From the NCBI RefSeq assembly GCF_009914755.1, contig NC_060934.1: 64,000 nt of DNA. One strand, 5' to 3'. Source of the stretch: the human T2T-CHM13v2.0 reference genome, Homo sapiens. Below the pieces are notes generated by a model, which saw only the letters and a list, made by a program, of their open reading frames with translations, was not told the DNA's origin and ran no database searches. Positions 42,801 through 45,800 of this stretch are shown here, one piece after another; positions within the stretch are counted from its first letter, which is position 1, and every line of letters starts with the position of its first letter. The translations under genes and the position numbers were made by a program.

Positions 42801-45800
42801 TCCTTCCCTTGGCCTCCAGAAAGAACAACATCAATCTCAGTCCTGTTATTTCATATATAGCAACTAGAATCACTCTGGACCCAAAAGTGTGGTTCCTTAG
42901 AGCCGTGCTTCAACACAATGAAAACACACATGGAAGCACCATGGTTGAGGAGAAGGTTAAGGAAAGGCTAAAGACACTAATTCAAAAGGGGCCTTAGGTA
43001 TACAGAGGTCTGAACAACTGTAAGTCTTCTGGGAGAGAACATCTCATTTAAAATTCAAGCAGTCCACAATTACATATAATTAAAAACTAAGATAATGACT
43101 GGATCTGACTGCAAGAAAAGAGAAAAAGAAATCCAACTTGAAAGACAGAAACAAAAGACATATTTTAGGGGAAAAAAATAGGCTCCATGACATGTTTATG
43201 ATCTTCTAAAGGGTAAATATTATGAGCACTGAAGCTACAGCTTTTACAAGTCCAAAACTGTGTGGGTACCTGGGTACCACAGCACTCTAAACAGGTATTT
43301 TTAAAATACCAAAAAAAAAAACCACAAAAAAACCCCCAAAAACTAAAAATATAAGAATCATAGAATATTAGAATTTGAAGAGACAATGGAGATACTATAA
43401 AGTGCAATCTCCTCATTTTATAGACAAAGAAACTGAGGTTATTAAGTGACTTGTTCAAGGATAGAAGGTAAGTCTGATTCTCTTCTAATAAATGATTATA
43501 AACATTTTGTTTTAAAATTGACAGAATTTTAAAGTAGCTAGACTGGGGATAAGCAGTAGGGTGTTGGGGAGGATGGCTGTAATAAGTACATTCATATTTT
43601 CAGATTTAATTTCTATATCTATAAAACCAAATGACATGTAAACTATACTGATATCAAATGAAAAATTCACAGGAATATAAAAACACTGTACAAATCAGGA
43701 TTTTAAATCAGTCTACAAACACATCATGCATCATATTAAAGTAAATGGTCACAGTAACATTTCTTTGGGAAATAATAGACAATCAAACAACCCTAATCAT
43801 GCAGGGAAAAGTACAAAACATTACAAATAAGCAAAAGAATGAAATTTTAAAACAGGAATGAAAAGGAGGGAAAATATTTCCATGCACAGAAAGACAGATA
43901 TCTTGGAATATGACTTCTAAAAATACCAAACACTAACACAGATAAAACTTAAGCTAAATTTGCACAAGGCCCAAGAGGACTCTGCATAGACATTACTCAA
44001 TGAATGTGCTAACTTACATGGACATGAAGATAACTTATGAAGTCATATTTCAAAACAATGTTACTCTGTCTGGTCTGTACCTTTTTTATTGCCATATATG
44101 AGCCGTTCTTCAGATGGAGAGTCCAGAAAAAAGGAAGTGAATGATGGAGAAAAGGTGGTTGGGACAAATAAAAAGATAGAGATTTAACTTGGCAGTGGTA
44201 CTGAAGAATGAATGTAGAAAGAGAGAAAAATGAAGGCCCTCATATTTGGAAATTTGAAAAATGTAGTACTGTAGAATCTGGTGAATAAAGAGGGATGCAA
44301 CTAGGTAGAACTCTAAAGTAAAGATTTCTTAAAAGACATGTGCATGGAAGAAATTATGGACAGAATAACTATCATATCTGATGGAAGCAGACATAATTAG
44401 GGACAGAAAAAAACATGTGAAAACACATAAGACTGAAAAAAGACTGCTAACAAATATTGCACATTTATAGTCATACCCCTAAGGAAATGTGTCACCTGTG
44501 GAAGTATGTTAAGTAAAAGGTAATGACACAAATGAAATACAAACTTGTGTGGTTCTTCAAGGACACCAACATCTGCAAAATCTGTAGTACATTCAGAGAA
44601 ATGTAGGTAACTTTATAAACTGCCTCAGTAGAAAACCTCACCCCCTCCCAACGAAGGAAAAGCTAAACCTCCCATATTCCCTAACAAGAGCACATGATTT
44701 CCTAAATCTGAATTGCAGAACTTTTGCATATACTCAGGAGCAACAGTATGTGCTTTCTGTCCCCAGTCCAATCTGGGAAATTTGGGGGACATCTTTTTGC
44801 AAAAATAGCAACAGATTGTTTCAAATCAAGTAACAGTTCTAAGAGTAGGCAGCTGGGGTGGTTTCATTTGAGCTTTCCATATCTTCCATTCTAATGCTGA
44901 GATATATTATTCCTTTATAGGAAATGTATTTATTTTAGTGAAACTGCAACACATATGGATTATGTACTTCCCTTTACCAAACTGAAGACAAAAGATAAAC
45001 ACCTGGAAAAAACTGCATGCAACCTAAATATCACAGAAATCAGTTTTCAAAAATTCTCTTTTATGATTAACACTTCTAAAACGGATGCTATGTGGGTTTA
45101 TACATTAGTGTTAATGCAAATTTTTGTCTTAAAAATGACCCCACACATACATTAAACAATACAGAGCACCAAAGATTTACCACTTAACAACAGTCTTATG
45201 CCTTTACCTAATCTTAGCTTTTTTTTTTTTGAGACCGAGTCTCGCTCTGTCAACCAGGCTGGAGTGCAATGGGGTGATCTCGGCTCACTGCAACCTCTGC
45301 CTCCCGAGTTGAAGCAATTCTCCTGCCTCTGCCTTCAAAATAGCTGGGACTACAGGTGCGCACCACCATGCCTGGCTAATTTTTGTGTTTTTTAAGTAAA
45401 GACGGGGTTTTGCCATGTTGGCCAGGTTGGTCTCGAACTCCTGACCTCAGGTGATCCACCCGCCTTAGCCTCCCAAAGTGCTGGGATTACAGGCCTGAGC
45501 CACCGCGCCCGGCCATCTTAGCTTTAAATATACAAAAATTACTTCTTCCTTCCTGACACTCAGAAATCTCCAATCCCGCTCTCTTTCCCCAAAGAAAAAC
45601 TAAACCCTTACTCTGATTCCACAGCCATCCCATCAAGTTTTCTTTCTAAAGTCAGATATCTCCCCAGACCAGTTCCATAGAATGGTTCACCGTTGTGTAG
45701 GAAAAGAGGAAGGAGAGAACAGAAGGCACGCCATTACAGTGAAAGGAAAGGAGAAAAGATGGAGGGAGTTAGAGGGAAGAAATCAGGGAGTACAAATAAG

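What the first reader, a model, noticed from the sequence alone, without database searches (positions are those of the whole stretch)
43720..44240. Hidden in-frame 27-nt microexon in PPP3CB intron 10 with an RBFOX/NOVA-type cassette
Seen: minus strand TTTTCTCCATCATTCACTTCCTTTTTTCTGGACTCTCCATCTGAAG|AACGGCTCATATATGGCAATAAAAAAG|GTACAG (exon 44107-44081). It is phase 1-1 like exons 10/11, giving [13 protein letters not shown](V)GSAAARKE with no stop. Three TGCATG motifs lie 200-360 nt downstream (43886-43881, 43803-43798, 43730-43725), and YCAY motifs crowd the upstream tract, all in repeat-free DNA. Established: downstream UGCAUG promotes inclusion via RBFOX in brain/muscle, and YCAY clusters bind NOVA. 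Inference: a tissue-specific 9-aa basic insert in the linker between the CnB-binding helix and the calmodulin-binding helix could tune Ca2+/CaM activation. It is not in the canonical 524/525-aa proteins as I recall them. I also recall a 9-aa insert at the same junction in a PPP3CC isoform (unverified). The exon contains AATAAA, so it might double as a terminal exon. It may already exist in predicted transcript sets.
Basis: partly seen in the sequence, partly recalled or inferred. Interest (0 to 1): 0.8.

Follow-up and report, generated by a model that had tools for sequence, protein, structure and literature searches.

The report
Known muscle-specific PPP3CB exon 10a
The 27-base in-frame exon is real, but it is the already annotated and published "exon 10a" of the calcineurin gene PPP3CB, an ancient alternative exon used in adult skeletal muscle rather than a hidden brain microexon.

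Summary
The sequence observation holds. The minus-strand cassette 44107-44081 is 27 nt, flanked by AG and GT. It is open in the frame of the intron it lies in and adds ERLIYGNKK just before the calmodulin-binding helix.

It is not hidden. The hub's RefSeq table lists 44081-44107 as an exon of other PPP3CB transcripts. Brinegar et al. 2017 (PMC5577920, passages read) describe it in mouse as Ppp3cb "exon 10a". [quoted passage not shown]

I confirmed the paralogous exon in the human PPP3CC intron. Gene models from mammals, a bird, frogs, lungfish, gar and sturgeon carry the near-identical peptide. Alpha-type calcineurins of frogs and a ray carry a related one.

The three downstream TGCATG are a real local cluster: 0.3% of equal-sized windows in the gene hold three or more. 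PPP3CC has its only intronic TGCATG at a similar distance. RBFOX control is therefore plausible but untested. NOVA or brain use is not supported, and neither is the terminal-exon idea.

Verdict: already known, low interest.

The parts
44081..44107 (-). PPP3CB alternative exon 10a. It is 27 nt in a phase-1 intron and encodes ERLIYGNKK (the first codon is shared with the last base of the preceding exon).
   Evidence: Sequence. Open frame after splicing by coordinates. Listed as an exon of other transcripts in the hub's RefSeq table. Published as Ppp3cb exon 10a. Peptide present in gene models of many vertebrates.
44108..44160 (-). 3' splice site (AAG acceptor, A at -3) with a long upstream pyrimidine tract that is rich in YCAY and in TCTT/CTCT/TTCT words.
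   Evidence: Upstream 150 nt: YCAY 8 (1.3% of gene windows reach this) and PTB-like words 12 (2.1%). No TGC in the last 50 nt.
44075..44080 (-). 5' splice site GTACAG, without G at +5.
   Evidence: The PPP3CC counterpart GTATCC also lacks G at +5.
43881..43886 (-). Sense-strand TGCATG, 194 nt downstream of the exon.
43798..43803 (-). Sense-strand TGCATG, 277 nt downstream.
43725..43730 (-). Sense-strand TGCATG, 350 nt downstream.
43681..43930 (-). Downstream intronic stretch (150-400 nt past the exon) that holds the three TGCATG and is also rich in UGU-type words.
   Evidence: TGTT/GTGT/TTGT 14 (0.7% of windows reach this); TGCATG 3 (0.3%).
49829..49906 (-). Upstream constitutive exon (exon 10 of NM_021132.4), ending ...DQFD plus one base.
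   Evidence: Hub table.
41909..41993 (-). Downstream exon 11 with tandem acceptors at 41990 and 41993 (plus or minus Val). It encodes the start of the calmodulin-binding helix ([26 protein letters not shown]).
   Evidence: Hub table. Both ...NKKGS... and ...NKKVGS... occur in protein models.

Best explanation
Identity (shown). This is PPP3CB exon 10a, a known alternative 27-nt cassette. When included it inserts ERLIYGNKK into the first linker (LR1) of calcineurin A-beta, a few residues before the calmodulin-binding helix. The exon is real, in frame and annotated. It is ancient: the peptide is nearly unchanged from human to sturgeon, and related inserts exist in the gamma and, in some species, the alpha paralogues.

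Usage (from the literature). [quoted passage not shown] The authors describe the calcineurin A postnatal transitions as conserved between mouse and human.

Splicing control (inferred). The exon is very short, its acceptor has A at -3 and its donor lacks G at +5, so it should need intronic enhancers. The most likely one is the downstream UGCAUG cluster read by RBFOX1/2, which are abundant in muscle (my odds about 0.45). The pyrimidine/YCAY-rich upstream tract may serve as a platform for repressors in other tissues. MBNL, CELF and SRSF2 may also contribute.

Protein effect (inferred). The insert lengthens LR1 and adds hydrophobic and basic residues to its otherwise acidic end. That would shift calmodulin-dependent activation towards the lower-activity adult muscle form (odds about 0.4).
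For: - Sequence and frame.
- Annotation: the hub's RefSeq table lists exon 44081-44107. One search confirms where the window lies in the assembly.
- Rudgalvyte and Glauser 2025 (passages): the exon lengthens LR1 by 9 residues.
- SRSF2-knockout muscle skips exon 10a (bioRxiv 10.1101/2024.04.06.588421, passage).
- Paralogue: the human PPP3CC intron has CTGAAG, then the 27-nt ATCACTACATTCCAAGCTATCAGAAAG, then GTATCC, giving DHYIPSYQK in the same phase. A blind peptide scan ranks it first in that intron.
- Orthologues: 16 of the 103 listed proteins in which both flanking anchors were found carry the insert (120 listed in all). The 13 best hits of a search on the 40 residues around the insert all carry it.
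- Alpha-type proteins of three frogs and a ray carry D[QH]LIYAQKK or EQLIYGQKK.
- Motifs: 3 TGCATG at +194, +277 and +350 (0.3% of windows). The only TGCATG in the 3.66-kb PPP3CC intron lies at +236.
Against: - No direct evidence for RBFOX. Three literature searches found no paper tying RBFOX to this exon.
- I could not test whether the TGCATG sites are conserved in other species, because no vertebrate genome other than the window's own was available.
- The motif statistics are post hoc, and TGCATG shows a general sense-strand excess in this window (30 against 10).
- Brinegar links the calcineurin A exons to CELF1 and MBNL1. The text names Ppp3cc as responding to both, while the Ppp3cb result is only in figures I could not see. 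YGCY motifs are not enriched around the exon.
- The protein-level effect of exon 10a alone has never been isolated. In C2C12 cells only the exon 13 events were redirected, and in muscle all four exons were targeted together.
- Tissue specificity rests on mouse RT-PCR. I saw no human junction counts.
- Most orthologue sequences are computed gene models.
Confidence: 0.9

Rival explanations
1. One reading: a brain and muscle microexon driven by RBFOX (downstream UGCAUG) and NOVA (upstream YCAY), not yet annotated.
For: The TGCATG cluster and the YCAY excess are real. The exon is of microexon size.
Against: - It is annotated (hub table) and published.
- Mouse tissue RT-PCR with brain in the panel reports inclusion specifically in skeletal muscle.
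- By the NOVA position rule as I recall it, upstream YCAY clusters predict skipping, not inclusion.
- The YCAY excess sits in a pyrimidine tract, so it may be compositional.
- There is no TGC next to the acceptor, unlike neuronal SRRM4-dependent microexons (feature recalled).
Confidence: 0.07
2. The postnatal muscle switch is driven mainly by falling CELF and rising MBNL activity (with SRSF2), and the TGCATG cluster is incidental.
For: - Brinegar 2017: 15 of 18 tested calcium-handling genes respond to CELF1 overexpression or Mbnl1 loss, and Ppp3cc responds to both.
- A Ppp3cc exon is on an Mbnl-dosage-responsive panel (PMC7913682, passages).
- Exon 10a is skipped in SRSF2-knockout muscle.
- The downstream intron is UGU-rich (0.7% of windows), and CELF proteins bind such sequence.
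Against: - YGCY counts are 1, 0 and 1 in the three flanking regions, so not enriched.
- The text I could read does not state the Ppp3cb exon 10a response.
- The authors themselves say these events need not be direct targets.
- The SRSF2-knockout effect may be secondary to failed differentiation.
Confidence: 0.3
3. The exon doubles as a terminal exon through its internal AATAAA and gives a truncated calcineurin.
For: AATAAA lies inside the exon, with a U/GU-rich stretch about 25-35 nt further on.
Against: - The hub table lists only the exact internal exon 44081-44107, with no extended form.
- The hexamer is the Asn-Lys codon pair. Orthologues with NRK or SRK there cannot keep it.
- Intron 10 holds 6 AATAAA on the sense strand anyway.
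- A 5' splice site 5 nt downstream would be expected to suppress cleavage (established knowledge).
Confidence: 0.03
4. It is a chance open AG...GT segment carried along by gene-prediction pipelines, with no function.
For: Chance candidates are common: 17 open 27-nt AG...GT segments in this 8-kb stretch.
Against: - RT-PCR evidence in mouse.
- The peptide is nearly identical across mammals, a bird, frogs, lungfish, gar and sturgeon.
- Same-length, same-phase exon in PPP3CC.
Confidence: 0.01

Closest known systems
Ppp3cb exon 10a of mouse (Brinegar et al. 2017, eLife, PMC5577920)
   Same: [quoted passage not shown] This is the human orthologue of that exon.
   Different: Nothing of substance. The paper prints no peptide in its text, so the match rests on length, position and the conserved peptide in mammalian gene models.
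PPP3CC exon 10a
   Same: 27 nt, same phase-1 intron, same CTGAAG acceptor context and an AAAG|GTA exon end, a donor without G at +5, and one TGCATG 236 nt downstream. Also muscle-specific and postnatal in mouse.
   Different: The peptide DHYIPSYQK shares few residues with ERLIYGNKK. The exons are identical at 14 of 27 bases. The DNA alignment across the exon is not significant on its own (63% over 79 nt, E = 1.0).
PPP3CA/PPP3CB exon 13 (30 nt, the 10-aa LR2 insert; window 35285-35314)
   Same: A small in-frame cassette in a disordered linker of the regulatory domain, rising postnatally in muscle.
   Different: It lies after the calmodulin-binding helix. It is included in heart, testis and brain as well, and PTBP1 represses it in T cells.
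Neuronal SRRM4/RBFOX-dependent microexons
   Same: Size of 27 nt or less, in frame, in a disordered surface segment next to an interaction domain, deeply conserved.
   Different: Reported tissue is skeletal muscle, not brain. There is no TGC between the pyrimidine tract and the acceptor (the feature itself is recalled).

Membership tests
PPP3CB exon 10a (published alternative exon) | 27-bp cassette between the exon ending ...DQFD and the exon encoding the calmodulin-binding helix | tested here: met
   described.
PPP3CB exon 10a (published alternative exon) | In-frame insertion | tested here: met
   open frame, 9 residues added.
PPP3CB exon 10a (published alternative exon) | Homologous 27-bp exon at the same place in PPP3CC | tested here: met
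   (L008 2861-2887); top hit of the blind scan.
PPP3CB exon 10a (published alternative exon) | Inclusion specific to adult skeletal muscle, rising after birth | not testable with these tools
   Literature only (mouse RT-PCR). No RNA-seq data available here.
RBFOX-activated cassette exon | (U)GCAUG in the downstream intron within a few hundred nt | tested here: met
   Three at +194, +277 and +350. Only 0.3% of 250-nt windows of the gene hold 3 or more.
RBFOX-activated cassette exon | Motif conserved in position across species | tested here: inconclusive
   No other vertebrate genome available. The only comparison was with the paralogue: PPP3CC has its single intronic TGCATG at +236.
RBFOX-activated cassette exon | RBFOX binding (CLIP) and loss of inclusion on RBFOX depletion | not testable with these tools
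   No paper found in three searches.
NOVA-regulated exon | YCAY cluster near the exon | tested here: inconclusive
   8 YCAY in the upstream 150 nt (1.3% of windows), but inside a pyrimidine tract. Downstream counts are ordinary (4 and 4).
NOVA-regulated exon | Neuron-specific change in inclusion | not testable with these tools
   The literature reports inclusion specifically in skeletal muscle, with brain in the panel. This speaks against membership.
SRRM4-dependent neuronal microexon | UGC-containing enhancer between the pyrimidine tract and the acceptor (feature recalled, not from a call) | tested here: not met
   No TGC in the 53 nt before the exon.

The most novel reading that the evidence does not exclude
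Exon 10a is an ancestral vertebrate module of the calcineurin A linker, older than the split into alpha, beta and gamma, with a core pattern [ED]-x-L-I-Y-[GA]-[NQS]-[KR]-K. It is kept as a muscle-regulated cassette in beta and gamma, kept in alpha of anamniotes, and lost from human alpha (possibly leaving a decayed relic about 2 kb upstream of PPP3CA exon 11). Its muscle-specific inclusion in both human paralogues depends on a downstream UGCAUG held at about +200 nt. The near-invariance of the beta-type peptide would then mark a binding motif and not a mere spacer.
Probability: 0.35. Interest if true: 0.35.

Novelty: already known. Interest (0 to 1): 0.1.

Why it matters
As a discovery it does not matter, because the exon is annotated and published. 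What remains open is modest but real:

- Nobody has separated the effect of exon 10a from that of exon 13.
- Its direct splicing regulators are unknown.
- The strong conservation of the nine residues next to the calmodulin-binding helix suggests a specific contact in muscle calcineurin signalling that could be tested with a single-exon knockout or with recombinant enzyme.

Tried and rejected
- DNA homology between the PPP3CB exon region and the PPP3CC and PPP3CA introns by sensitive blastn. The collinear match across the PPP3CC exon is only 63% over 79 nt (E = 1.0). Nothing matched at a corresponding place in PPP3CA. Paralogy therefore rests on position, length, phase and splice-site context, not on DNA similarity.
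- A 27-nt open AG...GT scan in PPP3CA: 49 chance-level candidates, none convincing.
- AlphaFold2 of an insert-bearing orthologue (P0121, 21-row alignment A1): mean pLDDT 42.4, with residues 195-506 all under 50. The model is too poor to say anything about the insert, and I did not use it.
- PDB sequence search. The solved beta-isoform chains (4or9, 4ora) align query 1-467 to chain 21-477, ten residues fewer. This is consistent with constructs that lack the insert, but I did not print the alignment.
- Papers that looked relevant but concern other PPP3CB events: PTBP1 in CD8 T cells is about exon 13 and the intron-12 poly(A) site; CELF1/ELAVL1 is about the extended terminal exon 12.
- A full-text search for the peptide ERLIYGNKK found 0 papers.
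- 'PPP3CB' with 'microexon' gave 3 papers (2 listed). I judged them unrelated from the listing only and did not read them.
- I did not run a complex prediction with calmodulin. It is a textbook pair that would pass by likeness to solved structures and could not resolve the effect of nine extra residues.
- Supplements. Only a reporting form is held for Brinegar 2017. Its figure supplements (peptide alignment, per-gene CELF/MBNL responses, morpholino sequences) and S1 Fig of PMC12503234 were not seen and may bear on the regulator question.

Full report
**1. The observation**

Read on the minus strand, window 44160-44075 shows a long pyrimidine-rich tract ending in CTGAAG. The 27-nt segment AACGGCTCATATATGGCAATAAAAAAG (44107 down to 44081) follows, and then GTACAG.

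I joined this segment by coordinates between the annotated exons 49829-49906 and 41909-41990. The reading frame of PPP3CB stays open and the junction reads [21 protein letters not shown]. With the alternative acceptor three bases upstream (41993) one valine is added after the two lysines.

The sequence part of the finding is therefore correct.

**2. Is it more than chance?**

An open 27-nt AG...GT segment alone is not. The 8-kb stretch from exon 10 to exon 11 holds 17 of them in this phase. The evidence that decides the matter comes from elsewhere (sections 3 and 4).

For the motifs:
- The window as a whole has no excess of TGCATG: 40 against 38.5 expected, and 43 of 100 shuffles reach 40.
- Thirty of the 40 are on the gene's sense strand.
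- Only 1.5% of 400-nt windows of the PPP3CB part hold three or more. For the 250-nt window that holds these three, the figure is 0.3%.
- The upstream 150 nt hold 8 YCAY (1.3% of windows reach this) and 12 TCTT/CTCT/TTCT words (2.1%).
- The downstream 150-400 nt are also rich in UGU-type words (0.7%).
- YGCY, the MBNL-type word, is not enriched.

These figures are post hoc. The YCAY count is partly a consequence of the pyrimidine tract.

**3. What it is**

The hub's RefSeq table lists 44081-44107 among "exons of other transcripts" of PPP3CB, so the exon is annotated. One search confirms that the window is chr10:74276001-74340000 of the assembly.

Brinegar et al. 2017 (eLife, PMC5577920; I read passages) describe it in mouse:
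- Ppp3ca has no equivalent.
- Inclusion rises after birth. Their table of splicing transitions gives deltaPSI 25 for Ppp3cb and 49 for Ppp3cc.
[quoted passage not shown] - The authors describe the calcineurin A postnatal transitions as conserved between mouse and human. Of 17 splicing events tested, 11 were conserved. Which ones is shown only in a figure I could not see.
- Morpholinos against Ppp3ca exon 13, Ppp3cb exons 10a and 13 and Ppp3cc exon 10a, given together, prolonged relaxation of adult FDB muscle.

Rudgalvyte and Glauser 2025 (PMC12503234; abstract and passages) refer to the same event as lengthening the linker LR1 by 9 residues. A preprint reports exon 10a skipping in SRSF2-knockout muscle.

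**4. New checks on its age**

The window's own genome could be searched. The PPP3CC intron (L008) contains CTGAAG, then ATCACTACATTCCAAGCTATCAGAAAG, then GTATCC. This is 27 nt in the same phase and encodes DHYIPSYQK. A blind scan with the insert peptides ranks it first in that intron. The two exons share 14 of 27 bases and the same acceptor and exon-end context. The DNA alignment alone is not significant.

I searched the protein collection with the last coding exon of PPP3CB. Of the 120 proteins listed, 103 had both anchors flanking the junction, and 16 of those carry the insert:

| Group | Insert |
|---|---|
| Dog, bat, camel, a bird, two frogs | ERLIYGNKK |
| Another frog, sturgeon, paddlefish | ERLIYGNRK |
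| Gar | ERLIYGSRK |
| Lungfish | ERLINGNRK |
| A ray (alpha-type protein) | EQLIYGQKK |

A second search limited to the 40 residues around the insert put 13 insert-bearing proteins on top, a buffalo model among them. A third search found alpha-type proteins of three frogs with DQLIYAQKK or DHLIYAQKK.

Most of these are computed gene models, but each comes from its own genome. The exon therefore predates the split of the alpha and beta genes, and the beta-type peptide has barely changed across bony vertebrates. That is far more constraint than a spacer would need.

**5. How it most likely works**

Shown: an in-frame, annotated, conserved cassette that the literature reports as muscle-specific and postnatal.

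Inferred for splicing:
- The exon is far shorter than ordinary exons.
- Its acceptor has A at -3 and its donor lacks G at +5. The PPP3CC copy shares both traits. Inclusion should therefore depend on intronic enhancers.
- The downstream UGCAUG cluster fits the RBFOX position rule, under which downstream sites favour inclusion (established knowledge).
- RBFOX1/2 are muscle proteins.
- PPP3CC has its only intronic TGCATG at +236.

I put RBFOX dependence at about 0.45. Three literature searches found nothing direct.

The CELF/MBNL axis is the main rival or partner. Brinegar's text names Ppp3cc as responsive to both factors. A Ppp3cc exon is on an Mbnl-dosage-responsive panel. The Ppp3cb result is only in figures I could not see.

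NOVA is not supported. The reported tissue is not brain, and upstream YCAY clusters would, as I recall the NOVA rule, favour skipping.

Inferred for the protein:
- The insert sits a few residues before [26 protein letters not shown], the calmodulin-binding helix.
- It adds one Arg, two Lys and the hydrophobic Leu-Ile-Tyr to the acidic end of LR1.
- From their redirected-splicing experiments, Brinegar et al. infer that the fetal forms of at least Ppp3ca and Ppp3cb are more active than the adult forms. This fits an insert that damps or retunes calmodulin activation.
- Exon 10a has never been tested alone.

**6. The terminal-exon idea**

The AATAAA is the Asn-Lys codon pair. Orthologues with Arg in place of the first Lys cannot keep it. 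Intron 10 has six other AATAAA. The hub table shows only the exact internal exon. I give this idea 0.03.

**7. Verdict**

The claim of a hidden exon fails, and the brain/NOVA framing is not supported. The feature is already known and interest is low.

The small residue of novelty is the depth of conservation shown here, the presence of the exon in alpha-type genes of anamniotes, and the shared downstream UGCAUG in the two human paralogues.

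Noticed in passing
window 41990-41993 (minus strand): Tandem acceptors three bases apart at exon 11 add or omit one valine (DQFDGS against DQFDVGS). 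Both forms occur with and without the exon 10a insert in protein models.
   Followed up: partly
L009/L010 (own genome, chr4, PPP3CA intron between the exons matching PPP3CB exons 10 and 11), about 2.0 kb upstream of the downstream exon: The best-scoring 9-mer against the insert peptides in the whole 20.5-kb human PPP3CA intron is ERLINNSRN (score 30; antisense maximum 21; two other sense hits score 28). A pyrimidine tract precedes it, and its distance to the next exon is like that of exon 10a in PPP3CB. It has no AG acceptor in phase, and a stop follows two codons after the 9-mer. It may be a decayed relic of an alpha-type exon 10a, or chance.
   Followed up: partly
proteins P0087, P0126, P0127, P0128: Alpha-type calcineurin A of a ray and three frogs carries an exon-10a-like insert (EQLIYGQKK, DQLIYAQKK, DHLIYAQKK). 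Brinegar 2017 states that mouse Ppp3ca has no equivalent, so the exon seems to have been lost from alpha at some point after amphibians branched off.
   Followed up: partly
proteins P0122, P0124, P0125, P0129, P0130: Calcineurin A of an acorn worm, sea urchins and bees has about 10-14 extra residues at the same place in the linker (for example ELIGDSVKSKS; VAAKVVVQKKNG). I cannot say whether these are homologous to exon 10a or alternatively spliced.
   Followed up: no
window 42376-42620 and 35336-35341 (minus strand): There is a second sense-strand cluster of three TGCATG 390-630 nt upstream of exon 11. A single TGCATG lies 22 nt upstream of the alternative 30-nt exon 13, inside its acceptor region. 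Overall 30 of the window's 40 TGCATG are on the sense strand of the three minus-strand genes.
   Followed up: no
proteins P0005, P0017, P0025, P0054, P0090: Several gene models read intronic sequence at this junction (for example camel models with 26 extra residues in front of ERLIYGNKK). They look like mis-predicted acceptors around the tiny exon.
   Followed up: no
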